Below the pieces are notes generated by a model that worked only from the letters and a program-made list of their open reading frames with translations, was not told the origin of the DNA and searched no databases. Positions 2,309 through 55,825 of a stretch of 64,000 bases of DNA are shown here, piece after piece. The position numbers and the translations under genes are program-made. Numbering within the stretch: position 1 is the first letter of the stretch; each line of letters begins with the position of its first letter. Source of the DNA: Acidobacteriota bacterium (GTDB taxonomy: Bacteria > Acidobacteriota > Vicinamibacteria > Marinacidobacterales > Marinacidobacteraceae); contig VXWI01000011.1 of assembly GCA_009835985.1 (NCBI GenBank), positions 11,483-75,482 on the forward strand, read 5' to 3'.

Positions 2309-3112
2309 TTACCCGGCGGCGCCGGCCTCCACGAAGGCCGTTGCGGCGACCGCCAGGATCAGCACCCAGGCGCCGTAGTGGAAACCTTCGCGCCGGAAGG
2401 ATTCGACGCGGGGCAGGTCGGGCCGGAACTTCCCGGACATGTTCCGCTGGATGTAGGTCTTGTAGTACTCGACGAGGAAACGCTCGAGCCCCCCGTTCAT
2501 GTAGATCAGGACTCCGAGCGCGACGGGCTCACCGGGCGTCTGTAGCCAGAAAAAAAGCGGCGAGGCGACGGCAAGCGCAAGCCCGGAGCGGAAGAACTTG
2601 AGGGTGTGGAACCCCTCGAAGGGAGCGTCCTTCCAGGCGCCGCCTCCGGACACGAGCAGGCCGGTCAGGTAGGCGACGACGAGATAGGCCCAGAAACCGG
2701 TCACCGGTGTCCCGATGAAGAGCACCGCGATGACTCCGGAGACGAGCACTACGCCGGCCGCGATCCGGAGCGCCCGGCTCCTCACCGGGCGCCCGAGGAT
2801 CGTGAGCGCCGAGGGGACGAAGTATTTCTCCTGCGGCTCCTCGCGGAAGCAGCCCTTGTGGAGTTCGGTGAGGAAGCGCTCGAGCCCCATCACCAGGAAG
2901 AAGAGCTGGACCAGCCCCAGCTCCGCGACCCGTTCGCGGAGGACGGGAACCGCGAGCAGGAAGGCGAAGATGATCAGCGAGAAGAGGACGCTGCGCGGGA
3001 AGGTGCGCGGCTTGAAGCCCTCCCACGGCGAGTCCTTGAAACCGCCCCACAGCGACGTGTAGAGCCCGGACAGCGCGGAAACCAGGAACCCGCCCAGGAA
3101 CCCGGCGCTCAT
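2309..3112 (-). CDS. Hypothetical polytopic membrane protein with a two-fold internal duplication
   Basis: 267-aa ORF located 17 nt upstream of the GMC gene on the same strand. It has multiple hydrophobic helices. Two repeated modules are visible: SLWGGFKDSPWEGFKPRTF with LERFLTELHKG in the first half, and GGGAWKDAPFEGFHTLKFF with LERFLVEYYKT in the second half. Confidence 0.55.
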   Translation of the reverse strand: MSAGFLGGFLVSALSGLYTSLWGGFKDSPWEGFKPRTFPRSVLFSLIIFAFLLAVPVLRERVAELGLVQLFFLVMGLERFLTELHKGCFREEPQEKYFVPSALTILGRPVRSRALRIAAGVVLVSGVIAVLFIGTPVTGFWAYLVVAYLTGLLVSGGGAWKDAPFEGFHTLKFFRSGLALAVASPLFFWLQTPGEPVALGVLIYMNGGLERFLVEYYKTYIQRNMSGKFRPDLPRVESFRREGFHYGAWVLILAVAATAFVEAGAAG

Positions 3113-7909: not shown

Positions 7910-8833
7910 CTACTCGATCGGGCGCAGTTCCTTCCAGCGCTCGATGAAGGCGACCGCGGCCTCGACGAAGGCTACGGTCCCCCGGCGGCCGCGCTCCACG
8001 CTCGATTCCTCGAGGTCGCGGACGCTCCAGACGCCGGTGTCGGTGATCTCCCGGGTAGAGGTGCCCTTGCCGGTCACCTCGGCCTTCAGGTTTTCGGCGA
8101 GGAATACCCGGAGCGCGGTGGGATCGCCCGCGACCACTTCTGGGACCATGCGCTCGAGGTGCTCCGGCATGGTGAGGGTGGCGGCCCGCGCCTTCGACAG
8201 GTCCACGAGATCGGGGATGAGGTAGAGCGAACTCGACGTCTCCCCGACGCCCCCGTGCCGGTCGAAGACGGGGTCTTCGGAGGAAGGCGCAGGCGTCTCC
8301 TGGCGGAACGGCGCCGCCGCCGCGCCCAGTTCGACGGCGATCCCCTCCGTCTCGTGGTTGATGCGGTCGGCGATGTACTGGGAGATGACGCGGTTGCCCC
8401 CGTGCGCGTTCAGGATCAGGAACCGCTTGAAGCCCTGCCGCATGAGGCTCTTCGCGGCCTCGAAATAGACCTGCTGGATCGTTTCCGCCGGCAGGCTGAC
8501 GGTTCCCGGAAACCCCAGGTGATACGCCGCGTTGCCCACGAACAGGATCGGCGCCACCAGCACGTCGGTGCGCTGGGCGACGAGCTTGGCGCGCTCCATC
8601 CCGTTCAGGAAATCGGTGCCGATGGGGAGGTGCGCCCCGTGCTGTTCCAGCGAGCCGACCGGCATGATGACCATGTCGGTGCGGGTGAGGAGGTCCTCGA
8701 CCTCGGTCCAGCTCATGTGCGGCAGGTAGTTCTTGACCTTCGTTTCTCCCCAGAGCGGATTCGTCTGGGCGCCGGCGGCGCTCGCCGCCAGGAGCGCCCC
8801 GATGATGGCAAGCGTGAACGTGTTCTTCGGCAT
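7910..8833 (-). CDS. Creatininase (creatinine amidohydrolase) family protein with signal peptide
   Basis: 307-aa ORF with a signal peptide (MPKNTFTLAIIGALLAASAAGAQT). The family core GSLEQHGAHLPIGTD and LNAHGGN is present. Confidence 0.8.
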   Translation of the reverse strand: MPKNTFTLAIIGALLAASAAGAQTNPLWGETKVKNYLPHMSWTEVEDLLTRTDMVIMPVGSLEQHGAHLPIGTDFLNGMERAKLVAQRTDVLVAPILFVGNAAYHLGFPGTVSLPAETIQQVYFEAAKSLMRQGFKRFLILNAHGGNRVISQYIADRINHETEGIAVELGAAAAPFRQETPAPSSEDPVFDRHGGVGETSSSLYLIPDLVDLSKARAATLTMPEHLERMVPEVVAGDPTALRVFLAENLKAEVTGKGTSTREITDTGVWSVRDLEESSVERGRRGTVAFVEAAVAFIERWKELRPIE

Positions 8834-8834
8834 G

Positions 8835-10505
8835 TCAGTGACTCCCTTCGGACTTGTTTGGGGTTCTTGAGGACCGGCTGTCGAAACGGCCGCGGCGCAG
8901 CCGGTTCAGCGCGGAAGCGATCTCGTAGCGGCGGGGGCGGGCCAGACGGCCGGGGTGAGCGCCGGCGCGTCCGTCGGCCGTCAGCGATTCGAGCCCCGCT
9001 TCGTTCAGCCGTTCATCGAGGACGTCGAGGAGTTCGCTGACCGGAAGCCCCGCACAGTCCCGGGAGGCAGCGGCCATGGCGTATCCGGCGGCCCGCGTCT
9101 GGCTCTCGTCAAAGAGCTGTTCCACCGCCCTCAGGTCCACCTCTTCCTCTCCGTAGAGGAGGAGGTCGCGGCGGGTGGCCCGGATCCGCGGAGTCCCCTT
9201 GCGGCCGGCCGGGTCGAAACTCCCGGGGTCGGGACAGCGCTCCCGCCCGTGGAAACCGGCGGCCTCGGCATCGGGAGACCGCCGCGTCGGATAGCGCGCG
9301 GCCACCTCGCGAGCCCGGGCGGTCACCTCGCGCGGCCGGTAGTCCGCCAGCTGGATCACGGTGTCCGCGGCGTCGAGATAGTCCCCGGAACCCCCCATGA
9401 CCAGGATGGTGGAGACCCGGTGCCGCTCGAAGAGTTCGCGCACCCGGTCCAGCAGCGCGACGATCGGTTCCGCCTCCCGCGCCACCAGGGCCTGCATCCG
9501 GGCATCCCGGATCATCAGGTTGGTGGCCGAGGTGTCCTCGTCCATCAGCAGGAGCCGGGACCCCGCTTCCAGCGCCTCGACGATGGAGGCCGCCTGGCTG
9601 GTGCTGCCGCTCGCGTTGTCGGTGGTGAACGCGGTGGTGGCCCGCCCGCCGGGAAGCTCCCGGATGAAGGGGCTCACGTCCACCGAGGACACCGCGCGTC
9701 CTTCCTCGGCGCGGATGGTCACCGCGTCCCCGCGGGTGACCACTAGCTCCCGCCCGTCGCCGGGGACGTGGGGGACCACCGACCGGGCCAGCGCCTGGAG
9801 CAGCGTGGACTTTCCGTGAAAGCCGCCGCCCACGATGAGCGTGACCCCTTCCGGGATGCCCATCCCGCGGATCTCCGGCGGGCCGCTCCCCGGGTGGAGC
9901 AGGGACAGGCTCACCCGGAGCGACGCCGGGCTCTCGAAGGGAACGACTCCATCGGTCAGAGGGCGTTCGCTGGCGCCGTGCGCGCGCGGCAGGATCGCCC
10001 CGTCGGGCACGAAGGCGGTGAGGCTCCGGGCTTCGAGCTGGGAGCGCAGGTGGTGCTGGTTCTCGACCGCGTTCACGAAGGACTCCGGCGCCCCCTCCGG
10101 AAGGCTCCGGAACACGAGTGCCCGCCCCGCGATTGCCGGAAGTTCACGGGTCAGCAGGTCGGCGGCCCGGTGGCCGAGGATCCGGCGCCCCGCCGCCGGC
10201 AGACCCACTTCCACCCGGGCTTCGACGAAACCGGCGCCGGACGGATCGCCGGAGATCCGGATCGCGGTGCGCTCGAGGATCTCCTGGCCGCCCGCATCGA
10301 TCCGGATCTGGCCGCTGTGGCCGGACCCCGCCGAGCTTCCCGATTGGGGAATCGCCCGGCCGAATCGACGGGCCAGGAAGTCGGCGAGGGCGGTCCGACG
10401 AGCCCGGTTGGAAGCGAGCGCAGCGGGAAAGCCGGCCGTCTCCCCATCCATCCGGACCCTCACCCGGGAGGGAGGGGCGAAGGGATCGCGGGCCACCCGG
10501 TCCAC
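8835..10505 (-). CDS. Predicted ATPase of the ABC class (PF09818-like)
   Basis: 556-aa ORF. The Walker A motif is GGGFHGKSTLLQAL and the Walker B-like motif is LLLMDEDTSATN. Its stop is 2 nt from the creatininase start. The true start is probably internal (MDGETAGF). Confidence 0.55.
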   Translation of the reverse strand: MDRVARDPFAPPSRVRVRMDGETAGFPAALASNRARRTALADFLARRFGRAIPQSGSSAGSGHSGQIRIDAGGQEILERTAIRISGDPSGAGFVEARVEVGLPAAGRRILGHRAADLLTRELPAIAGRALVFRSLPEGAPESFVNAVENQHHLRSQLEARSLTAFVPDGAILPRAHGASERPLTDGVVPFESPASLRVSLSLLHPGSGPPEIRGMGIPEGVTLIVGGGFHGKSTLLQALARSVVPHVPGDGRELVVTRGDAVTIRAEEGRAVSSVDVSPFIRELPGGRATTAFTTDNASGSTSQAASIVEALEAGSRLLLMDEDTSATNLMIRDARMQALVAREAEPIVALLDRVRELFERHRVSTILVMGGSGDYLDAADTVIQLADYRPREVTARAREVAARYPTRRSPDAEAAGFHGRERCPDPGSFDPAGRKGTPRIRATRRDLLLYGEEEVDLRAVEQLFDESQTRAAGYAMAAASRDCAGLPVSELLDVLDERLNEAGLESLTADGRAGAHPGRLARPRRYEIASALNRLRRGRFDSRSSRTPNKSEGSH

Positions 10506-11770: not shown

Positions 11771-12010
11771 ATGGCCAAGGGAGTCGTCAAGTGGTACGAC
11801 CGCCAGCGCGGCGAGGGATTCATCCAGCGGTTCGAGGGACCGGATGTCCACGTTCCCAGCAGCGCGCTGCTCGACCGGGAGCCGGGGTTCCTGATCGAGG
11901 GTCAGGCGGTGGAGTTCGAGCTGCTGACGATTCCCGGCGGCTTCCGGGCGCGGCGCGTGCGGGTGGTGGACCGGGGGTCGCCCCGGGAAATGAAGCCGTC
12001 CTCGGAATAG
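11771..12010 (+). CDS. Cold-shock domain protein (CspA family)
   Basis: An internal ATG within ORF 11678..12010 gives MAKGVVKWYDRQRGEGFIQRFEGPDVHVPSSAL...GQAVEFEL. This carries RNP1-like (RGEGFI) and RNP2-like (DVHVP) motifs. It starts 30 nt after the desaturase stop. Confidence 0.7.
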   Translation: MAKGVVKWYDRQRGEGFIQRFEGPDVHVPSSALLDREPGFLIEGQAVEFELLTIPGGFRARRVRVVDRGSPREMKPSSE

Positions 12011-12101
12011 GGAGAACTGGCCGGCGTTCCAGGTCCCGGGACCCGGCGAAGCGCGGTTTGGGCGCCCCGCCGGTCAGCCCGCCCGGGACTGAATCGCGGT
12101 G

Positions 12102-12440
12102 CTAGAACCGCTCGAGAGCGTCGGCTTCGGTGTCGGTGATCGTCAGGATCTGGTTGAAACCGCTGATCTTGAAGACTTCCAGAATGTGCTCCTTCATCTC
12201 GCAGAGCACCAGCTTGCCCTTCACCCCGGCCAACCGCTTGGCGAGGATCAGCAGGACGCGCATCCCCGTCGAGTTGATGTAATCCAGCCCACCGAAATTC
12301 ATCACCACCTGGGTCGCGCCCTCCGGCCCGATGGCGTGCGCCATCACCGCCTGCTCGAACTCGCTGCTCGTGCGGGTGTCGATGCGCCCCTGGGGCGACA
12401 GCACGAGAACTCCGTTCTTCGTTTCATCCGTCAGGTTCAT
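12102..12440 (-). CDS. STAS-domain anti-sigma-factor antagonist (RsbV/SpoIIAA-like)
   Basis: An internal ATG gives the 112-aa MNLTDETKNGVLVLSPQGRIDTRTSSEFEQAVM...LVLCEMKEHILEVFKISGFNQILTI. The conserved phospho-Ser region of STAS proteins is present. Its start overlaps the upstream kinase stop (ATGA). Confidence 0.75.
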   Translation of the reverse strand: MNLTDETKNGVLVLSPQGRIDTRTSSEFEQAVMAHAIGPEGATQVVMNFGGLDYINSTGMRVLLILAKRLAGVKGKLVLCEMKEHILEVFKISGFNQILTITDTEADALERF

Positions 12441-12913
12441 TGAGCTTCCTCCTGGTCGCCGGCTGTTAGCGACCGGGTCAGGGTGATCCGGTTTCGATCC
12501 TTGATCCGTTCGTAGTTGGTGGTGGTCATGAGGGACTGAACGAGAAAAACACCGAGTCCCCCGATCGGCCTCTCCTCGAGGGGAAGGGTCGTGTCGGGGA
12601 CCGGCGCCTCGTGAAACGGGTCGAATGGTATCCCGTGATCCTCGATTTCGATGTGAAAGGTCCCGTCCGCGATCGTGGCCCACATGTGAATGTGGGCGTG
12701 TTCGAGTTCGCGGGTTCCATACTTGATGATGTTGGTGACCAGTTCGTCCACCGAGAGCGTGATCCGCTGGGTCTGGAGCGGCGACACGCCATGTTTCTCC
12801 GCGAACTCCTCGAGCGCTACGAGCATCTCGCTGAGTTCGCCCAGGTCCTTGTCCAGCTTGCAGGAGAAGGCCGGAGCCTTCGACTTGCGTCCAGGGCCGC
12901 GCCTCGGTGCCAT
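12437..12913 (-). CDS. Anti-sigma regulatory factor, Ser/Thr protein kinase (RsbW/SpoIIAB-like HATPase_c)
   Basis: 158-aa ORF with N-box-like ELVTNIIKYG and G-box GGLGVFLVQSL. It is translationally coupled to the STAS gene. Confidence 0.7.
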   Translation of the reverse strand: MAPRRGPGRKSKAPAFSCKLDKDLGELSEMLVALEEFAEKHGVSPLQTQRITLSVDELVTNIIKYGTRELEHAHIHMWATIADGTFHIEIEDHGIPFDPFHEAPVPDTTLPLEERPIGGLGVFLVQSLMTTTNYERIKDRNRITLTRSLTAGDQEEAQ

Positions 12914-13060
12914 CGGGGAGTCAACTTTAGCAGCCCGTGATGAAACCCACGCCCTCCGGGAAACCGGCCGGAATCTCGGTAGCCGCGGCGCGCGACGGAG
13001 GAATACTGGGCGTTTGCCGGGCGAAACGCAACACGCAAAGGCGGGTTCCGCCGCGGTCCG

Positions 13061-13981
13061 TCACGCCCCGTGGTTTGGGGATCGCACGTCTCCGAGGGGG
13101 GCGGGACCGCCGGAGGGTTCCACATCCAGCATCGAGATCTTGACGCTGACCTCCAGGTCCTGCTGGGCGGCTCCCCGGAAGGTGCCGCGGGTGGGAGGAA
13201 CGTCGCGATAGTCCCGCCCGCTCGCGACCCGTACGTGATGTCGCGGAGAGACCGTGTTGTTCGTGGGGTCGGCGCCCACCCAGCCGAGGCCCGGAAGGAG
13301 GCACTCGATCCAGGCGTGGCTGGCCTGCGCCATGACCTGCTCCCTCCCCTTGTGCACCGGGAAGAGGTATCCGGAGACGTACTGGGCCGGAATCCCCCAG
13401 CCCCGCACGATGGCGAGCATGATGTGGGAAAAGTCCTGGCAGACACCGCTTTCCGCCGCCAGGGCGTCGTCGATCGGGGAGTCCACCCGGGTTCGTCCCC
13501 GCTCGAAGCCGAGTGCTTCGTGAATGCGGGCGGTCAGGTCGCGAACGGACGCGAGGGGCGTTTTGCCCCGCTCGATCCCGTTCCGGGCGACGAAGGCGTC
13601 GAGCGCGGCGGTCGGCCGGGTCAGCGGCGTGGGGTTGAGCAGATGCCAGGTCGCCGGCGTGTGCAGGTCGTCCAGATCGTCCCAGGCTGCCCCCCTGGTT
13701 TCATCGGGGTCGCTGGCGTGCAGGCCCACGAGGGACCGGGAGGTGACCGTCAGTTGTTCGTGTTCGCCGGGGACGTCGAAGAAATGCACCGCGTTCCCGA
13801 AGCAGTCCTCGTAACTGCCGAGTTCGGCGCCGGGGTCGGTGTGGATCTGGAAGGACCTGAGATGCTGGGAAGCGTCGCTGCGGGGTTCGAGGTAGAGCGT
13901 GACGACGGCTTCCCGGATCGGTTCCGAATACCGGAACCGGGTCATGTGTTCGATGCGGTAGAGGGTGTCTTCGGTGGTCAC
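13061..13981 (-). CDS. Transglutaminase-like protein (Bact_transglu_N plus transglutaminase core)
   Basis: 306-aa ORF. The Cys-His-Asp triad context is GVCQDFSH ... HAWIE ... ADPTNN. It is the third gene of the ATP-grasp/alpha-E/TGase triad. Confidence 0.85.
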   Translation of the reverse strand: MTTEDTLYRIEHMTRFRYSEPIREAVVTLYLEPRSDASQHLRSFQIHTDPGAELGSYEDCFGNAVHFFDVPGEHEQLTVTSRSLVGLHASDPDETRGAAWDDLDDLHTPATWHLLNPTPLTRPTAALDAFVARNGIERGKTPLASVRDLTARIHEALGFERGRTRVDSPIDDALAAESGVCQDFSHIMLAIVRGWGIPAQYVSGYLFPVHKGREQVMAQASHAWIECLLPGLGWVGADPTNNTVSPRHHVRVASGRDYRDVPPTRGTFRGAAQQDLEVSVKISMLDVEPSGGPAPLGDVRSPNHGA

Positions 13982-14002
13982 GTGGGTGGTGTGCGCGGGC
14001 CC

Positions 14003-14977
14003 TTATCGGCCCGGGAGCGCCTGGTCCGCGGGATAGAAGATGTAGCGGCGGTAGAGCTCGTCGTGGAGTCCGCGGGCGAGCCGCCGCACCTCGGCGAGCG
14101 TCCCCCCGAGATCCTCCCGGTCCTGGGACCCGTAAACGAGCAGCGCCCGCAGCTGACCGGCGATCCGGTGCGCGGCCTGCAAGGGGTGGCGGGCGCCGCC
14201 GGCCGGGTCGATGCGGCCCAGGCCGTTCCGGATCTCCTCGGCGGCGAAGCGGAGGGTGTGGGGTGATTCCGGCTCGTGGATCAGGAAGGTCATCACCTTC
14301 CAGGGGTCGATCTCGGGCGTGTAGTGGCGGCAGTAGGGCTCGAAGCTGGCGCAACTGCGGAGCAGGAGCGACCAGTCCAGATCGGTGTCTTCGTCGTCGA
14401 GGGCCGGCAGGTAGTTTTCGAGGATCTCGGTGGTGACCTGGATGCGCTCCATGAACCGCCCGAGCCGGATGAAGTCCCACGCGAGTCCGTGCCGGAGCCC
14501 GTTATCGGTCACCCCCCGGAAGAGGTAGATCTGCGCCGACGTCTCCTTGTAGAAGTTCTCGGGCTCCTTGTTCCAGAAGAAGTGCAGTTGCGTGTCGCGG
14601 AGCGAGAGGTAGGTCCGGTTGAGCTGACTCCACATCTCCTGGGTGATCTCCTGCCGCGCCTGCCGGGCGTTCTCCCGCGACATGGCCCACAGGGACACCA
14701 TCGAGCCGGGGTTGTCCTGCTCGAAACTCATGAAGTCCGCGAGCGTGTAGGCATCGGCGAGCAGGAAGGGGTCCTCGTGTTGATCGCCGTAGAGCGGATC
14801 GCCTCCGGGTGGCGTGACCTTGAGGCTGTGGAAGAGCCGCGTCCAGCCGGCCGCTACCTGGGCGGAGGTGTTGTCGGTCACCGAGCGCACCTGAACGCCG
14901 AGGAGCCGGATGGTCTGGTCCGACCGCTCCAGGTAGCGGCTCATCCAGTAGAGGTTGTCGGCGACGCGGGCAAGCAT
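14003..14977 (-). CDS. Alpha-E domain protein (PF04168-like)
   Basis: The C-terminal 324 aa of the long spurious ORF 14003..16192 begin with MLARVADNLYWMSRYLERSDQTIRLL, the canonical alpha-E N-terminus. The ATG sits 2 nt after the ATP-grasp stop (TGAtcATG). Confidence 0.85.
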   Translation of the reverse strand: MLARVADNLYWMSRYLERSDQTIRLLGVQVRSVTDNTSAQVAAGWTRLFHSLKVTPPGGDPLYGDQHEDPFLLADAYTLADFMSFEQDNPGSMVSLWAMSRENARQARQEITQEMWSQLNRTYLSLRDTQLHFFWNKEPENFYKETSAQIYLFRGVTDNGLRHGLAWDFIRLGRFMERIQVTTEILENYLPALDDEDTDLDWSLLLRSCASFEPYCRHYTPEIDPWKVMTFLIHEPESPHTLRFAAEEIRNGLGRIDPAGGARHPLQAAHRIAGQLRALLVYGSQDREDLGGTLAEVRRLARGLHDELYRRYIFYPADQALPGR

Positions 14978-14979
14978 GA

Positions 14980-16482
14980 TCAGCCGTCCGTTTCCGCCGG
15001 GGTCCCGTCTGCCTCCGGCACGTCCACGATCCAGGCGTCCTTGGAGCCGCCCCCCTGGCTGGAATTCACCACCAGGCTGCCCTTCTTGAGGGCGACCCGG
15101 CAGAGGCCGCCGGGGACGATCTCGGTGCGCTCCGACTGCAGGATGAACGGCCGGAGGTCCACGTGCCGCGGCTCGATGTGGGAGCCGACGAGACAGGGCG
15201 CCCGGGACAGGGCGAGCGTCGGCTGGGAGATGTAGTTGTCCGGGTCCTCCCGGAGCGCCGCCGCGAATTCCTTCCGCTCGGTCTTGGAGGCGTGGGGACC
15301 CACCAGCATCCCGTAACCGCCGGACTCGCCCACCATCTTCACGACCAGCTTGTCGAGGTTGGCGAGGGTGTAGGCCAGTCCCTCGCGCTCGCGGCAGAGC
15401 GTGGTCGGGATGGGCTTGATGAGCGATTCCTCGCCCAGGTAGTACTTGATGATGCGCGGCACGTAGGCATAGACGGCCTTGTCGTCGGCCACGCCGGTCC
15501 CGGGGGCGTTCGCGATCACCACCCGGCCCGCCCGGTAGGCGTGGAAGAGCCCGGGCACCCCGAGAACGGAGTCGTCGCGGAAGGTGACCGGGTCGATGAA
15601 GTCGTCGTCGATGCGCCGGTAGATCACGTCCACCTGCCGCAGCCCGCCTGTCGTGCGCATGTACACGCGCCGGTTGTGGACGAGCAGGTCGCGCCCCTCG
15701 ACGAGTTCGATGCCCATCTGGCGGGCCAGGAAGGCGTGCTCGTAGTAGGCCGAGTTGTAGACGCCGGGGGTGAGCAGGACGATGCTCGGATCGCCCACCT
15801 GCGGCGGCGCGAGCGACAGGAGCGTCTCGAGCAGCAGCCGGCTGTAGTGCTCCACGTCCCGGACCCGGGAACGCCGGAAGAGCCGCGGCATGCTGCGCTT
15901 GATGGCATCCCGGCAGGCGAGCATGTAGCTGACGCCGGACGGCACGCGGAGGTTGTCCTCGAGCACGGCGAACCCGTCGTGGGTGCGCACGAGATCGGTG
16001 CCGCACACCGAGACGTAGGCGCCGTGGGGGACCTCGACGCCGCGCATCTCGATCCGGTAGTGCTTGTTGCCGTAGACCAGTTCGGCGGGAATCACCCCGT
16101 CGCGGATGATGTGGCCCTGGTGGTAGATGTCGTGGAGGAACAGGTTGAGCGCCCGGAGCCGCTGTTCCAGCCCCCGGGCCACGTCGTCCCACTCGTCGCC
16201 GCGCACGATGCGGGGGAGGCAGTCGATCGGGAAGACGCGCTCGATGGTCTGCTCGTCGCCGTAGACGGTGAAGGTGATTCCCTCGTGAAGGAACGAGCGC
16301 GTGACCCGCTCCTGAATCTGCCGCAGGTCATCCGGCGGCGTCTCCCGGATGGTCTCGAAGAAATCGGCGCAGTGCCGGCGCGGGGATCCCCCGTCGTCGA
16401 ACATCTCGTCGTAGAACGTCGAGTTGTGGTCGTACTGGCGGAACGCGGGCGCGGCGGTGGGTTGCGCGCTGGTGTTGGTCAT
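14980..16482 (-). CDS. Circularly permuted ATP-grasp type 2 protein (PF14403-like)
   Basis: 500-aa ORF. Conserved blocks are YDHNSTFYDEMF, VIANAPGTGVADDKAVYAYVP and LVVKMVGESGGYGMLVGP. Confidence 0.85.
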   Translation of the reverse strand: MTNTSAQPTAAPAFRQYDHNSTFYDEMFDDGGSPRRHCADFFETIRETPPDDLRQIQERVTRSFLHEGITFTVYGDEQTIERVFPIDCLPRIVRGDEWDDVARGLEQRLRALNLFLHDIYHQGHIIRDGVIPAELVYGNKHYRIEMRGVEVPHGAYVSVCGTDLVRTHDGFAVLEDNLRVPSGVSYMLACRDAIKRSMPRLFRRSRVRDVEHYSRLLLETLLSLAPPQVGDPSIVLLTPGVYNSAYYEHAFLARQMGIELVEGRDLLVHNRRVYMRTTGGLRQVDVIYRRIDDDFIDPVTFRDDSVLGVPGLFHAYRAGRVVIANAPGTGVADDKAVYAYVPRIIKYYLGEESLIKPIPTTLCREREGLAYTLANLDKLVVKMVGESGGYGMLVGPHASKTERKEFAAALREDPDNYISQPTLALSRAPCLVGSHIEPRHVDLRPFILQSERTEIVPGGLCRVALKKGSLVVNSSQGGGSKDAWIVDVPEADGTPAETDG

Positions 16483-16539
16483 TAGGGCTGCCGCATCGGA
16501 GTCTTGTGCGCCGGACCGGGACCGACGTTCATCTGCTGA

Positions 16540-17844
16540 TCAGGCCGACTTCGGGAGGCCGTTCCGCGCGACGTCCTCGTACACATTACAGAAGTAGTCG
16601 AGTTCGGCCATGGTCGTGTAGAGGTTCGGGGTGATCCGGAGTCCCTGGAACTCCTCGTGCATGATGGGAGTGACGATGATGTGGTGCTTCTCCCAGAAGT
16701 AGTCGCGGAGCCGGGGCGGTTCGACCGTCGTCAGGTTGATGTTGCCGATGGCGCAGCTCAACCTGGGGTTCTTCGAGGTGTGGAGTTCGGTATTCGGGAG
16801 TGCTGACAGGCGATCGGCCCAGGTGTCCTTCAGATAACGGAGCCGGGCCTCCTTGTTCTTCGCTCCCACCGTGTTGTGAAAGGTGATCGCCTCTCCGACC
16901 GCCACGAAGTTGGCGGCGGGATGGGTGCCGATCTCCTCGTACTTGCGGATGTCCTCGTCCATGCGCTCGGGGGCCGGCATCATAGGCCAGATCTTCGGGA
17001 TCTTGTCCTTCTTCACGTAGAGCATCCCGGTGCCCTTGGGGGCGAGGAGCCACTTGTGGAGGCTGGTGCCGAAGTAGTCGCAGCCGATGTCCTCGAGCTT
17101 GAAGTCGAACTGGGCGAACGAGTGCGCTCCGTCCACCATGACCTCGATGCCGCGCTCGCGGGCCACGTCGCAGACGGCCTTCACCGGCAGGATCTGGCCG
17201 GTGAGGTTGATCTGGTGGGACATCAGGATGATCCGGGTCCTGTCGGTGATGGCGTTCCTGAATCCCTCCACGACCTCTTCGTCGGTCTCCGCCGGGGTCG
17301 GGATCTGGATGAACTTGAGATCGATGCCCTCGCGGCGCACCCGCTGGCGGATGGTGGTGAGCATCCGCCCGTAGTCCTGGGTGGTGGTGAGGATCTCGTC
17401 GCCCGACTGGAGATCGAGGCCGAGAAGCAGGATTTCCATCGCTTCGGAGGTGTTCCGGACCAGCGCCACCTCCTCGGGATCGCACCCGAACACCACCGCG
17501 AGCCGTTGGCGGACGTTCTCCTTCCGGGGCTGAAGGATCTGCCACATCGTGTAGACGGGGGCCTCTTCGGATTCCCAGATGTAGCGGACGAACGCCTCGG
17601 TGACCATCCGGGGTGAAGGGCAGACCCCGCCGTTGTTCAGGTTGATGATCGAGCGCGTGACGCTGAACGCCTGCTGGATCTCGCTCCAGAAGTTCTCGTC
17701 ACGGGCAAGGTCTTCCGGGCTCGACCCCCCTGTCCGTTGCGCCGCGGCCTCGACTTTCCGGATCGTTTCCGGTCCGAAGAGGGTGGTGACGAGCGCGGCG
17801 CCGCCCGCTTCGCCTACCGAACTGAGAAACCGCCTGCGCCGCAT
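16540..17844 (-). CDS. Aminotransferase class V-fold PLP enzyme (isopenicillin-N-epimerase/cysteine-desulfurase-like) with twin-arginine signal
   Basis: An internal ATG in ORF 16540..18063 gives MRRRRFLSSVGEAGGAALVTTLFG (Tat motif). The PLP-Lys region is GTSLHKWLLAPKGTGMLYV. It lies 58 nt upstream of the ATP-grasp gene. Confidence 0.8.
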   Translation of the reverse strand: MRRRRFLSSVGEAGGAALVTTLFGPETIRKVEAAAQRTGGSSPEDLARDENFWSEIQQAFSVTRSIINLNNGGVCPSPRMVTEAFVRYIWESEEAPVYTMWQILQPRKENVRQRLAVVFGCDPEEVALVRNTSEAMEILLLGLDLQSGDEILTTTQDYGRMLTTIRQRVRREGIDLKFIQIPTPAETDEEVVEGFRNAITDRTRIILMSHQINLTGQILPVKAVCDVARERGIEVMVDGAHSFAQFDFKLEDIGCDYFGTSLHKWLLAPKGTGMLYVKKDKIPKIWPMMPAPERMDEDIRKYEEIGTHPAANFVAVGEAITFHNTVGAKNKEARLRYLKDTWADRLSALPNTELHTSKNPRLSCAIGNINLTTVEPPRLRDYFWEKHHIIVTPIMHEEFQGLRITPNLYTTMAELDYFCNVYEDVARNGLPKSA

Positions 17845-26580: not shown

Positions 26581-28002
26581 TCACCGGACCAGCGTGAACG
26601 CCTTCCGCGTTTCGTAGACCTGCTCGCCGTAGAGGACCCGGATTCCGAGTTCGTAGCGCCCCGGCGCGAACTCGCCCAACTCGATCTCCGCATTGGCGGC
26701 AGCCTGCCGCGTACTGGTGGGGAGCGCCTCGGGACGGACGAAACCGGTATCCCGTCCCTCCCGGCTCAGGGTGTACTCGGCCACGATCTCCGGTAACTCC
26801 CCGTCGTCCACGCGTTCCCCCGGGTAGAAGAAATAGAACGCGCCGAGCGTCTCGTCCTGCCGGAACACCGCTGTCGAGCGGGGCTCGAAGTGGGTGCGCC
26901 CGAATTGGAAGGCGCGTCCGGGAACGCGGCCGCTGTACTCCTGCATGGTGGTGTCGCCGTAGAGGACCACTGAGGAGAACCCGGGCTCCGCTTCGGGAAA
27001 GGCCGGCGTCTCGACGTCCAGCCGGGCGGTGCCGAAGGCGTCCGACTGCTCGTCCACGACGCCGAGCAGCAGTCGGTGCCGGCCCGGGGGGAGCACCAGC
27101 GAGGCCTCGAAACGGACGGGGCCTTCCGCGGACCGGATCTCGGTGTGCGCCGTTTCCAGCCGGTAGGTCGCGGTTCCCGGGCTTTCCGCCTCGGCGGACG
27201 CGGTCTTGGCGAACAGGGACGCCGCCAACTGTCCGTCCGTTCCGGGGGCGAGCGCAGCGGCGGGAGTCTCGAAGAGCAGCGCGACGTAGGTTGCCCGGTC
27301 GTCCACCCGGAAGTAGGCCGGCGTGACCCGGAAGGAGAACCCGTCCCCGGCCGGACCGTCGCCGCTCAGTCCGGCGAGCACGCGCCGGGCTCGGTCCGAT
27401 CCTCCCGCCGGGAGGTTCGGGATCACGAGCCGCCCCTCCCCGTCGCGTTCGAAGCCGATCTCCGGCCGGGCGATGAGACGCCGCCTCATCTCTTCGAGGC
27501 TCTGGTCAACGGCGGTGCGGTTCTCGAGGAAGAGCTGGCCGTCCTCGTCCCGGTAGTAGAGCGCTTCCAGTGTGTCTGCAAGGCCGTTTTCCGGATCGGG
27601 AGGGAAGGCCCAGAGGAGTCCTTCCGGAGTCTCCTCGGTAGCGGGCTGGGGCAGGGCCTGCACCGGCATGCCGAGCAGCACGAAGACCCGGGCCCGGTCG
27701 TCCCCGCCGTAGCCGCCGTCCTCCGAGAAGTTCGAGTCGGCGAGCCGCACCCGCGCCAGATAGAGGTCGAGGGTTTCGTTCTGGGGACTGGACGGGTCCG
27801 GATCCCGGCGCATCCAGAAGAGACGCCGGAAGGCCTCCCGGTCGCCGTGCGTCATCGCCTCGATGGAGGCGCGGCGCTCCTCCTGGGTCATCAGGAAGGA
27901 CTCCAGCCAGCCCAGTTCGGTGTCCGTGGGCCGGTCCCGTCCCTGGGCGAGAGAGGCCGCCGGGACAGTCAACAGCAGGACGGCAAGCAGGACAATCGGC
28001 AC
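26581..28002 (-). CDS. Secreted GWxTD-domain-like protein
   Basis: 473-aa ORF with a signal peptide (MPIVLLAVLLLTVPAASLAQG). The N-terminal block FWMRRDPDPSSPQNETLDLYLARVRLADSNF...GGYGGDDRARVFVLLGMP resembles the GWxTD domain, with the GWxTD core degenerate. The family assignment comes from recall. Confidence 0.55.
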   Translation of the reverse strand: MPIVLLAVLLLTVPAASLAQGRDRPTDTELGWLESFLMTQEERRASIEAMTHGDREAFRRLFWMRRDPDPSSPQNETLDLYLARVRLADSNFSEDGGYGGDDRARVFVLLGMPVQALPQPATEETPEGLLWAFPPDPENGLADTLEALYYRDEDGQLFLENRTAVDQSLEEMRRRLIARPEIGFERDGEGRLVIPNLPAGGSDRARRVLAGLSGDGPAGDGFSFRVTPAYFRVDDRATYVALLFETPAAALAPGTDGQLAASLFAKTASAEAESPGTATYRLETAHTEIRSAEGPVRFEASLVLPPGRHRLLLGVVDEQSDAFGTARLDVETPAFPEAEPGFSSVVLYGDTTMQEYSGRVPGRAFQFGRTHFEPRSTAVFRQDETLGAFYFFYPGERVDDGELPEIVAEYTLSREGRDTGFVRPEALPTSTRQAAANAEIELGEFAPGRYELGIRVLYGEQVYETRKAFTLVR

Positions 28003-28045: not shown

Positions 28046-28474
28046 GTGATCGTCCCGGACGTCAATCTGCTGGTTTACACCTGCAGCGAGGACGCGTTCT
28101 TCCACGACCGGGCAAAGGCGTGGTGGGGAGCGTCGCTCTCCGGGACGGAAGCGGTGGGACTCGCCTGGAGCGTCATGCCTGGCTTTGCGCGGGTGGTGTC
28201 GAATCGCCGGATGCTGACCGTCCCGGTTGGGGTCGAGCCGGCGCTATACCGCTGCCGGAAGTGGCTCACCCAACCGCAGGTCCACGTCCTGTTGCCCGGG
28301 CCAGATCGCCTGGATGTCCTGGCTGACCTGCTCCGGGGACCCACAGCTGTTTCGGCGCTGGCGCCAGAAGCCCACCTCGCGGCTCTCGCGATCGAACATC
28401 AGGCAGAGTTGAACTCAACCGATTCGGATTCCGCTCGTTTCTCCGGATTGCGCTGGCGAAACCCGGTCGCGTGA
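28046..28474 (+). CDS. vapC: PIN-domain ribonuclease toxin (VapC family)
   Basis: 142-aa ORF with a GTG start. The conserved acidic residues are MIVPDVNLLVY (Asp5) and the C-terminal AELNSTDSDSARFSGLRWRNP. Confidence 0.75.
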   Translation: MIVPDVNLLVYTCSEDAFFHDRAKAWWGASLSGTEAVGLAWSVMPGFARVVSNRRMLTVPVGVEPALYRCRKWLTQPQVHVLLPGPDRLDVLADLLRGPTAVSALAPEAHLAALAIEHQAELNSTDSDSARFSGLRWRNPVA

Positions 28475-28961
28475 CGGACTGCGTACCCCCCTCGGGGCCA
28501 CCGGTCGTGAGGTCCGTCGATGGGTGCGCGGGGCGCTCCAGGAAGTCGAAGTCCTCCTGGCAGCACCAGCAGGGTCCCGGGAGGTGCGAGGTGATGTTGC
28601 AGGTGAAGCAGAAGTAATAGGGCTCGACCGCTTTCCCGTCCTGGATCGTGTAGAGGCGGATGATCTTGCCGAGCCCGTCCTCCTCCCAGAGCGCAACCTC
28701 CAGCGGATGCCTGTGCACCCGCTCGTCGGTGAGGATTTCGCCCCGCAGGTCCGTGGGGTCCAGCCGGTGGATCGTGCCGTCCGGTGATTCGATCCCGAGC
28801 TGCTCGCCGAAGCTGCAGTCCGCCGCCGGTCCCGGTTCCCCGTCCTTGAGGCAGACCGCGCGGCCGGAGACGATGATCTCGCGTCCGTTCCAGGCGGCTC
28901 TCGTGACGGCGGGGGCGGCCATCAGGAAAAGCGTCGCACGGAGCGCATCGCGTCGGTGCAT
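28266..28961 (-). CDS. Hypothetical Cys-rich secreted protein, 3' end uncertain
   Basis: An internal ATG in ORF 28266..29045 gives MHRRDALRATLFLMAAPAVTRAAW followed by a region with high GC3 and protein-like composition (KIIRLYTIQDGKAVEPYYFCFTCNITSHLPGPCWCCQEDFDF). The last ~70 codons overlap vapC antisense and look low-complexity. Confidence 0.4.
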   Translation of the reverse strand: MHRRDALRATLFLMAAPAVTRAAWNGREIIVSGRAVCLKDGEPGPAADCSFGEQLGIESPDGTIHRLDPTDLRGEILTDERVHRHPLEVALWEEDGLGKIIRLYTIQDGKAVEPYYFCFTCNITSHLPGPCWCCQEDFDFLERPAHPSTDLTTGGPEGGTQSVTRPGFASAIRRNERNPNRLSSTLPDVRSREPRGGLLAPAPKQLWVPGAGQPGHPGDLARATGRGPAVG

Positions 28962-29045
28962 GGGACTGTGGAGATTAGCAGGGGACCCTGGGTCGTGCTG
29001 CCCCCGGACCTGCTGGACGGACGAACCGGAGTGAAGGAGTCGCAT

Positions 29046-32171: not shown

Positions 32172-32181
32172 GGACAACCCG

Positions 32182-32215
32182 GCCGGCGCCGCCGCCCCTG
32201 GTGGTGGCGGCGCCG
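32182..32215 (+). terminator. GC-rich stem-loop after the TonB-dependent receptor gene (candidate intrinsic terminator)
   Basis: CCGGCGCCGCCGCC-CCTGGTGGT-GGCGGCGCCGG forms an inverted repeat 11 nt after the TAG stop. No strong U-tract follows. Confidence 0.35.
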
Positions 32216-32305
32216 GTCTGAACCGACACTCTCGGGGAGGGCACCCCACGTCACCCCGTCCACAGATCGCGGAGGCAGCAAGTCTCCGCTCACGGGAGAT
32301 CCACC

Positions 32306-32830
32306 ATGAAGACGACCGGTCGGCTGACCTTCCTCTCGTTGCTCGTGGCCGGCGCGGCGCTCGCGCTGGTCGCCTGTACCGCCCCGCCTCCCATGGAAGA
32401 GGAGGACGAGGGCACGCTCATCACCGGAGTCTGGGCCTTCGTGTCGGAGACGAACACCGAGACCGGGGAACTCGTGCGGGACGACTCGACCTGGAGCGGG
32501 ATCTGGGTCTTCACGAACGGCTACCACTGCCTCGCCCGCATGGACAACAACCGGACCGCGCGTTCGGCCGCCGAGCTCGCCGAGCTCACGCCCGAGGAAC
32601 AGGTGGCGCACTACCAGCAACTCCTCAACTACTCCGGGACCGCCGGCACCTACCAGGTCGAGGGGGACACCCTCCTGCGCCAGTGGGACGTCAGCCTGGG
32701 GCCGGACATCATCGGGCTCGAGTCGGTCGCGAAGGTCCGGGTGGAAGGCGACCGGATGTTCGTGGACCTGCCGCGGCGCAGCGAGGAGTCGGGGCCCGCG
32801 GTCCAGGTGATCTATCGTCGGCTCGAGTAA
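32306..32830 (+). CDS. Hypothetical lipoprotein
   Basis: 174-aa ORF with a lipobox (LALVAC). It sits between the TonB receptor and the BNR gene. Confidence 0.6.
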   Translation: MKTTGRLTFLSLLVAGAALALVACTAPPPMEEEDEGTLITGVWAFVSETNTETGELVRDDSTWSGIWVFTNGYHCLARMDNNRTARSAAELAELTPEEQVAHYQQLLNYSGTAGTYQVEGDTLLRQWDVSLGPDIIGLESVAKVRVEGDRMFVDLPRRSEESGPAVQVIYRRLE

Positions 32831-32876
32831 CGCGAACGCTCGGCCCCGATCGTCCCTTCCGCAGAAAGGAGCAAAG

Positions 32877-35963: not shown

Positions 35964-35987
35964 GCCGGAAACGGAAGGGAGTTCGTC

Positions 35988-40148: not shown

Positions 40149-40179
40149 AGGACGGCACCATCGTCTTCCGACCGGAGGA

Positions 40180-55723: not shown

Positions 55724-55825
55724 CGTTTCGACCCTCCCCAGGTGCGGCCCGCGCCGTGAGGACCCAGCCGGGTCCTCCATCACCGCAGCGTCATGAACTG
55801 AGTCTACCCGCGTCAAGCGGCGCGC

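What the first reader, a model, noticed from the sequence alone, without database searches (positions are those of the whole stretch)
12102..17844. Tat-signal aminotransferase, then circularly permuted ATP-grasp / alpha-E / transglutaminase-like triad, then an orphan RsbW-RsbV partner-switching pair
Seen in sequence: five co-directional genes with near-zero spacing carry the hallmark motifs of the CP_ATPgrasp_2, alpha-E (MLARVADNLYWMSRYLERS) and transglutaminase-like (Cys/His/Asp) families. The ATP-grasp and alpha-E genes are translationally coupled (TGAtcATG).

Established knowledge: this triad is a widespread but functionally uncharacterised predicted peptide-ligation/modification system (comparative-genomics predictions of amidoligase systems).

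Unusual here:
- It is preceded by a class-V PLP enzyme that carries a twin-arginine export signal (MRRRRFLSS), so the PLP enzyme is predicted to act outside the cytoplasm.
- It is followed 147 nt later, on the same strand, by a HATPase anti-sigma kinase (RsbW-like) overlapping an STAS antagonist (RsbV-like).
- No PP2C phosphatase or sigma factor is nearby.

Inference: the partner-switch pair may sense or regulate the product of the ligase system. That would be an undescribed regulatory coupling.
Basis: partly seen in the sequence, partly recalled or inferred. Interest (0 to 1): 0.7.

Follow-up and report, generated by a model that had tools for sequence, protein, structure and literature searches.

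The report
Partner-switch regulators wired to an amidoligase operon
A six-gene operon in a marine acidobacterial symbiont joins the long-mysterious ATP-grasp/alpha-E/transglutaminase "peptide-ligase" system to an anti-sigma-type kinase and its antagonist, and the same link recurs in at least four phyla, next to nitrogen-related genes, so it gives a testable lead on how this uncharacterised enzyme system is controlled.

Summary
Six co-directional minus-strand genes (12102-17844) encode a Tat-motif PvdN-like PLP enzyme, CP ATP-grasp, alpha-E, transglutaminase-like protein, RsbW-like kinase and STAS antagonist. All Pfam hits are strong. The 64-kb window has no PP2C phosphatase or sigma factor.

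The RsbW/STAS adjacency is not chance.
- All 18 linked loci fall in one ATP-grasp clade (27 of 91 sequences, NJ bootstrap 100/100). That clade spans Acidobacteriota, Gammaproteobacteria, Gemmatimonadota and Chloroflexota, with four gene orders.
- Nine of nine sampled RsbW homologues (69-38% identity) abut alpha-E or the transglutaminase gene.
- Outside the window's lineage the pair always comes with a REC-PP2C phosphatase, a LivJ-like periplasmic binding protein and a TorS-like histidine kinase. The pair here is therefore a trimmed five-gene module, not a true orphan.
- That module also sits beside ammonium-transporter genes, which matches published nitrogen-limitation induction of the triad.
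- The module also occurs widely without the triad.

Linkage of the PLP enzyme is confined to one order with general synteny, so it cannot be judged. Tat-exported PLP enzymes have precedent (PvdN, PtaA).

Best reading: a sigma-less, nitrogen-linked partner switch dedicated to the amidoligase system. The direct target is inferred. This is a new variant of known kinds.

The parts
16540..17844 (-). PvdN-like class-V-fold PLP enzyme (434 aa), first gene of the cluster
   Evidence: Pfam Aminotran_5, 2.5e-39. Best NCBIfam hit is PvdN at 148 bits, far below its 650-bit cutoff. Best solved structure is PvdN 5i90, E 7e-30 over the full length, with the HKW lysine motif aligned. dN/dS is 0.10-0.19 within the lineage.
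17740..17844 (-). Putative twin-arginine (Tat) signal peptide, residues 1-35: MRRRRFLSS, a weakly hydrophobic stretch, then VEAAA|Q
   Evidence: The motif M[RL]RR[RSN]FL and the following stretch are conserved in 8 orthologues. The cleavage site is inferred. No Tat predictor was available.
14980..16482 (-). Circularly permuted ATP-grasp amidoligase (500 aa)
   Evidence: CP_ATPgrasp_2, 1e-160. PDB 3n6x, E 1e-163. It belongs to a clade of 27 of 91 sequences with 100/100 NJ bootstrap.
14003..14977 (-). Alpha-E protein (324 aa); its ATG lies 2 nt after the ATP-grasp stop codon
   Evidence: Pfam Alpha-E, 1.4e-69. The junction reads TGAtcATG. The AF2 model has pLDDT 86 and is all-helical.
13061..13981 (-). 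Transglutaminase-like cysteine peptidase-fold protein (306 aa)
   Evidence: Bact_transglu_N plus Transglut_core. Cys181/His222/Asp238 are invariant in 77 homologues.
12914..13060 (-). 147-nt spacer between the transglutaminase and RsbW genes, specific to this species (-4 to +26 nt in relatives)
   Evidence: Gap table. No promoter-like or terminator-like site in the spacer. No stable fold, z = +1.66. No Rfam match.
12437..12913 (-). RsbW-like GHKL serine kinase / anti-sigma-type partner-switching protein (158 aa)
   Evidence: HATPase_c_2, 1.4e-24. The N-box DELVTN, G1 DxGxxF[DN]P and G2 IGGLG are conserved across 16 cassette homologues. dN/dS is 0.25-0.47.
12102..12440 (-). STAS-domain antagonist (112 aa); its start overlaps the RsbW stop (ATGA)
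   Evidence: STAS, 7.5e-18. TIGR00377, 77 bits, above its cutoff. The phosphorylatable Ser57 (YINSTG) is invariant in 16 homologues. It is among the most constrained genes of the cluster, with dN/dS 0.09-0.19.

Best explanation
The six genes form one operon-like unit in a marine Acidobacteriota symbiont lineage (Vicinamibacteria, Ca. Marinacidobacterales).

Its core is the ATP-grasp / alpha-E / transglutaminase amidoligase system, the 'Anbu-operon' type without Anbu.

The RsbW-like kinase and STAS protein are the output end of a sigma-less partner-switching pathway dedicated to that system and tied to nitrogen status.

In the fuller cassettes of other phyla the inferred pathway runs as follows:
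1. A LivJ-like periplasmic binding protein and a TorS-like histidine kinase sense an external nitrogenous ligand.
2. They phosphorylate a REC-PP2C phosphatase.
3. The phosphatase dephosphorylates STAS-Ser57-P.
4. Free STAS captures RsbW.
5. RsbW releases its partner.

I infer that this partner is the ATP-grasp/alpha-E enzyme pair, so the ATP-consuming ligase would be gated post-translationally. In the window's lineage the sensor half is not encoded in cis. Input must then come from an unlinked phosphatase, or from the ATP/ADP dependence of the RsbW-STAS equilibrium.

Shown: gene content, motifs, conserved linkage, co-diversification, and association with ammonium-transporter genes.
Inferred: the signal, the direction of control and the direct target.
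For: Triad-centred sample:
- Among the 80 species-representative loci closest to the window's ATP-grasp, RsbW/STAS lies within +-10 kb in 7.
- All 7 fall in one ATP-grasp clade: 7 of 17 versus 0 of 63 elsewhere, Fisher p = 6e-6.
- With loci from the other searches added, that clade holds 27 of 91 sequences, 18 of them linked, with bootstrap 100/100.

Gene orders found in linked loci:
- AT-grasp-alphaE-TG-RsbW-STAS in Acidobacteriota.
- grasp-alphaE-RsbW-STAS-RECPP2C-PBP-HK in Gammaproteobacteria (L013) and in L096-L099.
- (Amt-)STAS-RECPP2C-RsbW-PBP-HK-grasp-alphaE in Dehalococcoidia (Amt present in L036 only).
- HK-PBP-RECPP2C divergent from RsbW-STAS, then Amt-grasp-alphaE-TG, in Gemmatimonadota.

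RsbW-centred sample:
- Nine of nine homologues, from 69% down to 38% identity, directly abut alpha-E or the transglutaminase gene.
- Gene gaps run from -17 to about 30 nt, including alpha-E stop and RsbW start abutting with 0 nt.

Age and constraint:
- The ATP-grasp and RsbW trees have matching major groups.
- Protein identities are low (RsbW 27-47%), so the link is old rather than a recent transfer.
- All six genes are under purifying selection in the window's lineage, and STAS is among the most constrained.
- Kinase boxes and the STAS serine are intact.

No sigma factor occurs in any cassette or in the window.

Nitrogen theme:
- Amt genes are adjacent to the module or to the ATP-grasp gene in L021, L026, L029, L030, L032, L036, L102, L104, L180 and L181.
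- The triad is NtrC/sigma54-dependent in B. cenocepacia (PMC5491218).
- It is induced by nitrogen starvation in P. putida (cited in PMC5666114 and PMC6376114).
- It co-varies with urea-metabolism domains in marine metagenomes (PMC3597751).
Against: - The same kind of module is widespread without the triad. 78 of 80 metagenomic RsbW homologues at 32-46% identity have no ATP-grasp or alpha-E nearby, although many of those contigs are short.
- L102, L180 and L181 carry the full five-gene module without ATP-grasp/alpha-E.
- Nine of 27 members of the linked ATP-grasp clade lack the pair, including L012, a close relative that kept the PLP enzyme and the triad. The pair is therefore dispensable.
- No protein-protein interaction was tested or could be tested here.
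- Piasecka et al. detected no specific interactions of Anbu with the other operon proteins (PMC6376114).
- The window's lineage has no cis phosphatase, so the pathway there is incomplete as seen.
- The trees are neighbour-joining only. RsbW is short and its tree is weakly resolved.
Confidence: 0.55

Rival explanations
1. Classical anti-sigma circuit. RsbW sequesters a sigma factor encoded elsewhere. The amidoligase operon is simply one member, or the home, of that nitrogen-stress regulon. Control is transcriptional and there is no contact with the enzymes.
For: RsbW/SpoIIAB homologues are best known as anti-sigma factors, and NCBIfam's nearest models are RsbW and SpoIIAB. Some partner switches act on unlinked sigma factors, for example in Chlamydia and Shewanella (review PMC8256260). 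The module also stands next to other genes such as Amt, or alone. That fits a general regulator better than an enzyme-specific one.
Against: No sigma factor gene occurs in the window or in any of 18 linked cassettes across at least four phyla. Sigma-directed pairs usually carry their sigma gene in the operon (established knowledge for sigB and spoIIA). The tight coupling of alpha-E and RsbW genes is more typical of interacting products.
Confidence: 0.25
2. No functional coupling. The pair sits by the triad through inherited synteny or en-bloc horizontal transfer among marine symbionts.
For: Within the window's order the entire neighbourhood is syntenic, from the MscS-like channel and FadB through to CSD, the desaturase and the ABC_ATPase. 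Adjacency there proves little. The linked ATP-grasp clade mixes phyla, mostly sponge or coral MAGs by record name, which suggests transfer. L012 lost the pair without losing the triad.
Against: The linkage survives four different gene orders and deep divergence (RsbW 27-47% identity, alpha-E 34-41%). Enrichment is 7 of 17 versus 0 of 63, p = 6e-6. The pair is under purifying selection.
Confidence: 0.08
3. The STAS protein or RsbW is a substrate of the ligase/transglutaminase. This would be peptide or amino-acid tagging of a signalling protein, following the protein-tagging idea proposed for this triad, rather than regulation of the triad.
For: Iyer et al. 2009, as summarised in PMC5666114 and PMC6376114, proposed protein tagging for this system. 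STAS is among the most conserved genes in the cluster.
Against: No data point to it. Cassettes without the transglutaminase gene keep the pair. The conserved STAS serine and the kinase boxes are fully explained by ordinary partner switching.
Confidence: 0.05
4. The Tat-exported PLP enzyme belongs to the same pathway. It would tailor, in the periplasm, an exported product of the cytoplasmic amidoligase, as PvdN tailors the gamma-linked glutamate of pyoverdine.
For: It is co-directional, with a 37-69 nt gap to the ATP-grasp gene in all seven genomes of the order that were examined, including L012, which lost RsbW/STAS. PvdN is its best match and acts on a glutamyl amide (PMC6206403). It is under strong purifying selection.
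Against: It is absent from every triad locus outside this order (78 of 80 loci) and from all other linked cassettes. The whole neighbourhood is syntenic in the order, so adjacency is uninformative. No exporter gene lies in the cluster.
Confidence: 0.3

Closest known systems
Anbu-operon-type amidoligase system (circularly permuted ATP-grasp, Alpha-E, transglutaminase-like, with or without the Anbu peptidase; Iyer et al. 2009, as cited in PMC5666114 and PMC6376114)
   Same: Same three families in the same order, grasp then alpha-E then transglutaminase, tightly spaced. The nitrogen-related context agrees with published nitrogen-limitation induction (PMC5491218, PMC6376114).
   Different: No Anbu gene in the window. 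The cluster is extended by a Tat-motif PLP enzyme upstream and a partner-switching pair downstream. In the literature I could search, control is described at the transcript level only (NtrC/sigma54 dependence, induction under nitrogen limitation), not as a partner switch.
RsbV-RsbW / SpoIIAA-SpoIIAB partner switching (Bacillus)
   Same: A HATPase_c_2 kinase with N, G1 and G2 boxes, and a STAS antagonist with the conserved phospho-serine. The genes overlap.
   Different: No sigma factor gene in the operon or window. No PP2C in cis in this lineage. The scores lie far below the RsbW and SpoIIAB equivalog cutoffs, so this is a different subfamily.
Two-component-fed partner switches with REC-PP2C phosphatases (B. 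cereus RsbK-RsbY; Pseudomonas RssB/RssC) and sigma-less switches (Bordetella BtrUVW, Vibrio SypE/SypA; review PMC8256260). The first two names rest on my own knowledge and on the NCBIfam RssB hit.
   Same: In relatives of this locus the pair comes with a REC-PP2C whose best NCBIfam match is Pseudomonas RssB, plus a histidine kinase. Outputs other than an operon-encoded sigma factor have precedent.
   Different: The sensor is a LivJ-like periplasmic binding protein with a TorS/PgtB-like kinase. The neighbours are an amidoligase system and/or an ammonium transporter. Neither pairing was found in the literature searched.
PvdN / PtaA, Tat-exported periplasmic PLP enzymes of pyoverdine tailoring (PMC6206403)
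   Same: Class-V fold, with PvdN the best match over the full length. Twin-arginine N-terminus.
   Different: Only 148 bits against the 650-bit PvdN cutoff, so it is not an orthologue. There is no pyoverdine cluster. Export was not tested.
TorT-TorS type sensing (periplasmic binding protein plus histidine kinase); applies to the relatives only
   Same: The kinase of the module has a TorS_sensor_domain hit or TorS/PgtB-like matches, and it is translationally coupled to a binding-protein gene.
   Different: The binding protein belongs to Peripla_BP_6 (LivJ-like), not the TorT family. The ligand is unknown. These genes are absent from the window.

Membership tests
CP ATP-grasp / Alpha-E / transglutaminase amidoligase system | Circularly permuted ATP-grasp protein | tested here: met
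   PF14403, 1e-160, matched across the full profile. PDB 3n6x, 1e-163.
CP ATP-grasp / Alpha-E / transglutaminase amidoligase system | Alpha-E protein with the conserved N-terminal ER motif, encoded directly after the ATP-grasp gene | tested here: met
   PF04168, 1.4e-69. R14, Y15 and R18 of SRYLER are invariant in 32 homologues and E17 is nearly invariant. The gap to the ATP-grasp gene is 2 nt.
CP ATP-grasp / Alpha-E / transglutaminase amidoligase system | Transglutaminase-like protein with a Cys-His-Asp triad | tested here: met
   PF08379 plus PF01841. C181/H222/D238 are invariant in 77 sequences.
CP ATP-grasp / Alpha-E / transglutaminase amidoligase system | Anbu (proteasome-beta-like) peptidase as fourth gene (frequent, not obligatory) | tested here: not met
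   No proteasome-family gene appears among the called genes within +-10 kb or in the Pfam scans of the rest of the window.
CP ATP-grasp / Alpha-E / transglutaminase amidoligase system | Amide-bond-forming activity and its substrate | not testable with these tools
   Only ATP hydrolysis by a Yersinia homologue has been reported (PMC6376114).
RsbW/RsbV-type partner-switching module | GHKL serine kinase (HATPase_c_2) with N, G1 and G2 boxes | tested here: met
   PF13581, 1.4e-24. The motifs are conserved in 16 homologues.
RsbW/RsbV-type partner-switching module | Single-domain STAS antagonist with a phosphorylatable Ser/Thr | tested here: met
   TIGR00377, 77 bits against a 53-bit cutoff. Ser57 is invariant.
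RsbW/RsbV-type partner-switching module | Cognate PP2C phosphatase | tested here: not met
   None in the 64-kb window. A REC-PP2C is adjacent in all linked loci outside this lineage. The top 120 REC-PP2C homologues included none on this lineage's contigs.
RsbW/RsbV-type partner-switching module | Sigma factor as the sequestered partner | tested here: not met
   No sigma-factor family in the window or in any cassette. An unlinked sigma factor cannot be excluded.
RsbW/RsbV-type partner-switching module | Kinase phosphorylates STAS; the partners exchange | not testable with these tools
   Needs biochemistry or complex prediction.
Tat-exported PLP enzyme (PvdN-like) | Twin-arginine signal (S/T-R-R-x-F-L-K type) followed by a mildly hydrophobic stretch and an AxA site | tested here: inconclusive
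   The RRRRFLSS motif is conserved in 8 orthologues, and VEAAA follows. The hydrophobic stretch holds a Glu in some orthologues. No TatP or SignalP was available.
Tat-exported PLP enzyme (PvdN-like) | Membership of the PvdN equivalog | tested here: not met
   NF051467 scores 148 bits against a 650-bit cutoff. PvdN is still the best PDB match.

The most novel reading that the evidence does not exclude
An RsbW-type 'anti-sigma' kinase has been recruited to bind and gate a metabolic enzyme complex, the ATP-grasp/alpha-E amidoligase, instead of a sigma factor. It would act as the output of a periplasmic nitrogen-ligand sensing pathway (binding protein, histidine kinase, REC-PP2C, STAS). In sister cassettes the same switch may control ammonium transporters in place of, or beside, PII/GlnK. 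That would be a sigma-independent, post-translational nitrogen-control circuit. It would also be the first regulatory handle on the uncharacterised Anbu-type amidoligase system.
Probability: 0.3. Interest if true: 0.8.

Novelty: new variant of a known kind. Interest (0 to 1): 0.62.

Why it matters
The ATP-grasp/alpha-E/transglutaminase (Anbu-operon) system is one of the most widespread bacterial gene clusters with no known product. Fifteen years of structural and biochemical work have not found its substrate (PMC5666114, PMC6376114).

A conserved, dedicated signalling module next to it supplies concrete experiments:
- which ligand the binding protein recognises;
- whether RsbW binds alpha-E or the ATP-grasp protein;
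- whether phosphorylation of the STAS protein tracks nitrogen supply.

The association with ammonium-transporter genes ties the system more firmly to nitrogen economy. It also adds a case to the growing list of partner switches that work without a sigma factor. All three partners occur in abundant, uncultured sponge and coral symbionts, where nitrogen recycling is central to the symbiosis.

Tried and rejected
- The 147-nt spacer before RsbW. It has no promoter-like or terminator-like site and no stable RNA fold (z = +1.66, 193 of 200 shuffles fold at least as well). It has no Rfam hit at E <= 1. It is species-specific and unexplained.
- Finding the missing phosphatase. tblastn of three REC-PP2C/binding-protein/kinase sets against the window found nothing. 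I also matched 'longest contig' sizes of REC-PP2C homologues to this lineage's contigs and found none among the top 120. The family has more than 8000 close members, so this is uninformative.
- Defence-system reading. PADLOC gave only generic cysteine-desulfurase-like hits (SspA/DndA) for the PLP enzyme. The restriction-modification genes next to L097 and L098 are insertions that are absent from L099. Rejected.
- Chance adjacency. Rejected by the multi-phylum recurrence.
- PLP-enzyme linkage outside the order. No hit in 78 of 80 triad loci.
- Iyer et al. 2009 (PMC3268129) could not be read. Whether that paper lists this neighbourhood is unchecked.
- My crude GC3-based ORF caller mis-called some regions, for example the Amt gene upstream of the ATP-grasp gene in Gemmatimonadota, which was recovered by tblastn.

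Full report
**What is in the window**

The region 12102-17844 holds six co-directional genes on the minus strand.

| Gene | Coordinates | Length | Pfam hit |
|---|---|---|---|
| PLP enzyme (AT) | 16540-17844 | 434 aa | Aminotran_5, 2.5e-39 |
| CP ATP-grasp | 14980-16482 | 500 aa | CP_ATPgrasp_2, 1e-160 |
| Alpha-E | 14003-14977 | 324 aa | Alpha-E, 1.4e-69 |
| Transglutaminase-like (TG) | 13061-13981 | 306 aa | Bact_transglu_N + Transglut_core |
| RsbW-like kinase | 12437-12913 | 158 aa | HATPase_c_2, 1.4e-24 |
| STAS protein | 12102-12440 | 112 aa | STAS, 7.5e-18 |

- The STAS protein passes the NCBIfam anti-sigma-factor-antagonist cutoff.
- Gene gaps are 57, 2 (TGAtcATG), 21, 147 and -4 nt (ATGA overlap).
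- The transglutaminase Cys181/His222/Asp238 triad is invariant in 77 homologues.
- The kinase N, G1 and G2 boxes and the STAS Ser57 are conserved in 16 cassette homologues.
- The cluster is bounded by a divergent MscS-like channel gene and a convergent cold-shock gene.

No PP2C phosphatase, sigma factor, Amt gene or module-type binding protein or kinase occurs anywhere in the 64 kb.

**Whose genome**

The identical ATP-grasp protein is found on at least 18 contigs, 10 of them shown. By record names they are mostly sponge-metagenome MAGs. The nearest named relatives are Ca. Marinacidobacterium and a Vicinamibacteria MAG, both Acidobacteriota.

**The PLP enzyme**

- Its best NCBIfam and PDB matches are PvdN: 148 bits, far below the 650-bit cutoff, and 5i90 at E 7e-30 over the full length.
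- The N-terminus M[RL]RR[RSN]FL, followed by a mildly hydrophobic stretch and VEAA, is conserved in eight orthologues.
- PvdN and PtaA are proven Tat-exported, PLP-loaded periplasmic enzymes (PMC6206403). A Tat-exported class-V enzyme therefore has precedent.
- The gene accompanies the triad only inside the order Ca. Marinacidobacterales. It is found in L011, L012, L091-L095 and L100, and in none of the 78 other triad loci.
- In that order the whole neighbourhood is syntenic, so functional linkage cannot be judged from position.

**Is the RsbW/STAS adjacency meaningful?**

I ran three independent tests.

(a) *Triad-centred test.*
- I took the 80 GTDB species-representative loci with the closest ATP-grasp proteins. 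The triad itself is almost always intact.
- A detectable RsbW/STAS pair lies within +-10 kb in seven loci: L011, L013, L026, L030, L032, L036 and L054.
- All seven belong to a single ATP-grasp clade: 7 of 17 versus 0 of 63 elsewhere, Fisher p = 6e-6.
- With the loci from test (b) added, that clade has 27 of 91 sequences, 18 of them linked. Its NJ bootstrap support is 100/100.

(b) *RsbW-centred test.*
- I looked up the contexts of nine homologues of the window's RsbW, from 69% down to 38% identity.
- All nine directly follow the alpha-E or transglutaminase gene.
- Five are the same six-gene arrangement in the same order, with transglutaminase-to-RsbW gaps of -4 to 26 nt.
- Four show grasp-alphaE-RsbW-STAS-(REC-PP2C)-(Peripla_BP_6)-(HAMP-HisKA-HATPase_c kinase), with gaps of -11 to 30 nt downstream of alpha-E.

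(c) *Negative control.*
- A metagenome scan with an RsbW alignment returned 80 homologues at 32-46% identity from soil, gut, rumen and other habitats.
- Only L100, from the same lineage, had ATP-grasp and alpha-E. L109 had a transglutaminase fragment next to STAS-PP2C-RsbW-PBP.
- RsbW-type modules in general are therefore not tied to the triad.
- In an NJ tree the triad-linked RsbWs fall into two groups. A main group has a few unlinked members (L102, L103, L105), and the Dehalococcoidia group is separate.

**The fuller module**

Outside the window's lineage, the pair comes in every linked locus with three further genes:
- a REC-SpoIIE phosphatase, whose best NCBIfam match is Pseudomonas RssB;
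- a Peripla_BP_6 binding protein, distantly LivJ-like;
- a HAMP histidine kinase with TorS/PgtB-like sensor similarity.

Four gene orders occur:
- Acidobacteriota: AT-grasp-alphaE-TG-RsbW-STAS.
- Gammaproteobacteria (Ca. Azophilus, L013) and the unassigned L096-L099: grasp-alphaE-RsbW-STAS-PP2C-PBP-HK.
- Dehalococcoidia: (Amt-)STAS-PP2C-RsbW-PBP-HK-grasp-alphaE. Amt is present in L036 only.
- Gemmatimonadota: HK-PBP-PP2C divergent from RsbW-STAS, followed by Amt-grasp-alphaE-TG.

Further points:
- The major groups of the ATP-grasp and RsbW trees match.
- Identities are low (RsbW 27-47%, alpha-E 34-41%). The association is therefore old and has been maintained through rearrangement.
- L012 nests inside the acidobacterial group but lacks the pair, which points to a secondary loss.
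- The window's 'orphan' pair is best read as a trimmed version of the five-gene module.
- It is still under purifying selection. dN/dS is 0.09-0.19 for STAS and 0.25-0.47 for RsbW. dS is near saturation, so these values are approximate.

**Nitrogen link**

- The five-gene module also occurs without the triad. In two Gammaproteobacteria it is followed directly by an ammonium transporter gene (L180, L181).
- Amt lies immediately upstream of the ATP-grasp gene in five Gemmatimonadota loci. It lies upstream of STAS in L036, between RsbW and STAS in L104, and after the kinase in L102.
- Published work agrees:
  - The triad is strongly NtrC/sigma54-dependent in B. cenocepacia (PMC5491218).
  - Anbu operon genes rise under nitrogen starvation in P. 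putida (cited in PMC5666114 and PMC6376114).
  - The domains co-vary with urea-metabolism domains in marine metagenomes (PMC3597751).
- The biochemical function of the triad is still unknown. Only ATP hydrolysis by the ATP-grasp protein has been shown (PMC6376114).

**Mechanism proposed**

- Shown: the components, the intact catalytic and phospho-acceptor motifs, operon-like spacing, conserved linkage, and the Amt association.
- Inferred pathway: a periplasmic nitrogenous ligand is sensed by the binding protein and kinase. The REC-PP2C is then activated and dephosphorylates STAS-Ser57-P. STAS sequesters RsbW, and RsbW releases its partner.
- No cassette carries a sigma factor, and alpha-E and RsbW genes are often translationally coupled. 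I therefore favour the ATP-grasp/alpha-E enzyme as that partner. The main rival is an unlinked sigma factor.
- In the window's lineage the input must come in trans, or from the ATP/ADP sensitivity of RsbW-type kinases (established for the Bacillus systems; my own knowledge).
- Sigma-less or non-canonical partner switches are known, for example BtrUVW and SypE/SypA (PMC8256260).

**Novelty**

Searches combining partner switching, STAS or anti-sigma antagonists with ATP-grasp or ammonium transporter found nothing relevant. The founding comparative paper (Iyer 2009) could not be read. I rate this a new variant of known kinds: known amidoligase triad, known partner switch, new and conserved coupling.

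**Dead ends**

- Alpha-E fold search.
- Spacer analyses.
- PADLOC.
- Search for the missing phosphatase.

Noticed in passing
L011-L100, ATP-grasp tree: The window's ATP-grasp belongs to a clade with 100% bootstrap support. The clade mixes Acidobacteriota, Gamma- and Alphaproteobacteria, Bacteroidota, Gemmatimonadota, Chloroflexota and Bacteriovoracales. By record names most are sponge, coral or marine MAGs. This looks like habitat-linked horizontal spread of the whole triad.
   Followed up: partly
L180 7194-14364; L181 7160-14101; L104 424-3153: The five-gene partner-switch module (RsbW-STAS-REC-PP2C-binding protein-histidine kinase) sits directly next to an ammonium transporter gene, and no PII gene was called next to Amt in L180 or L181. 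The REC-PP2C has more than 8000 close homologues, so this undescribed Amt-linked module may be very common in marine Gammaproteobacteria.
   Followed up: partly
L021, L026, L029, L030, L032, about 8430-9900 (+): In Gemmatimonadota an Amt gene immediately precedes grasp-alphaE-TG on the same strand, even in the two loci without RsbW/STAS. This is a direct operon-level tie between the triad and ammonium uptake.
   Followed up: partly
L002 14616-18852 and L004 14567-18803, against window about 12010-12100: Strains with the identical ATP-grasp protein carry a four-gene insertion (CNNM/CorC, MgtE, MgtE_N, MscS-like) between the STAS gene and the cold-shock gene. The window lacks it. The six-gene cluster stays intact.
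   Followed up: no
window 12914-13060: The 147-nt spacer between the transglutaminase and RsbW genes is peculiar to this species; relatives have -4 to 26 nt. It has no recognisable promoter, terminator, RNA family or stable fold.
   Followed up: yes
window 43590-44672 (-): An ERG4/ERG24 sterol-reductase-family protein (1e-47) in an acidobacterial symbiont. A LysE exporter and DinB-family genes are neighbours.
   Followed up: no
window 29319-41622 (+): A run of large predicted envelope or secreted proteins: a TonB-dependent/OMP_b-brl_4 receptor (950 aa), a Sortilin/BNR protein (1028 aa), a 1386-aa protein with Peptidase_M14 and S-layer-like parts, and a beta-lactamase-family protein. A second beta-lactamase-family gene lies at 52000-53325.
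   Followed up: no
window 2309-3112 (-), 26581-28002 (-), 28266-29045 (-), 32306-32830 (+), 54623-55816 (-): High-GC3 ORFs of 174-473 aa with no Pfam hit at 1e-5.
   Followed up: no
L098 10844-12036; L005 12480-13486: In L098 the REC-PP2C is called as two ORFs (REC 175 aa plus SpoIIE 221 aa). In L005 no transglutaminase gene is called between alpha-E and RsbW. These may be frameshifts or assembly errors in the MAGs.
   Followed up: no
L097 2999-6187; L098 1-7227: Restriction-modification and PIN genes lie just upstream of the cassette in two related genomes but not in L099. They look like an island inserted at that spot, not part of the system.
   Followed up: partly
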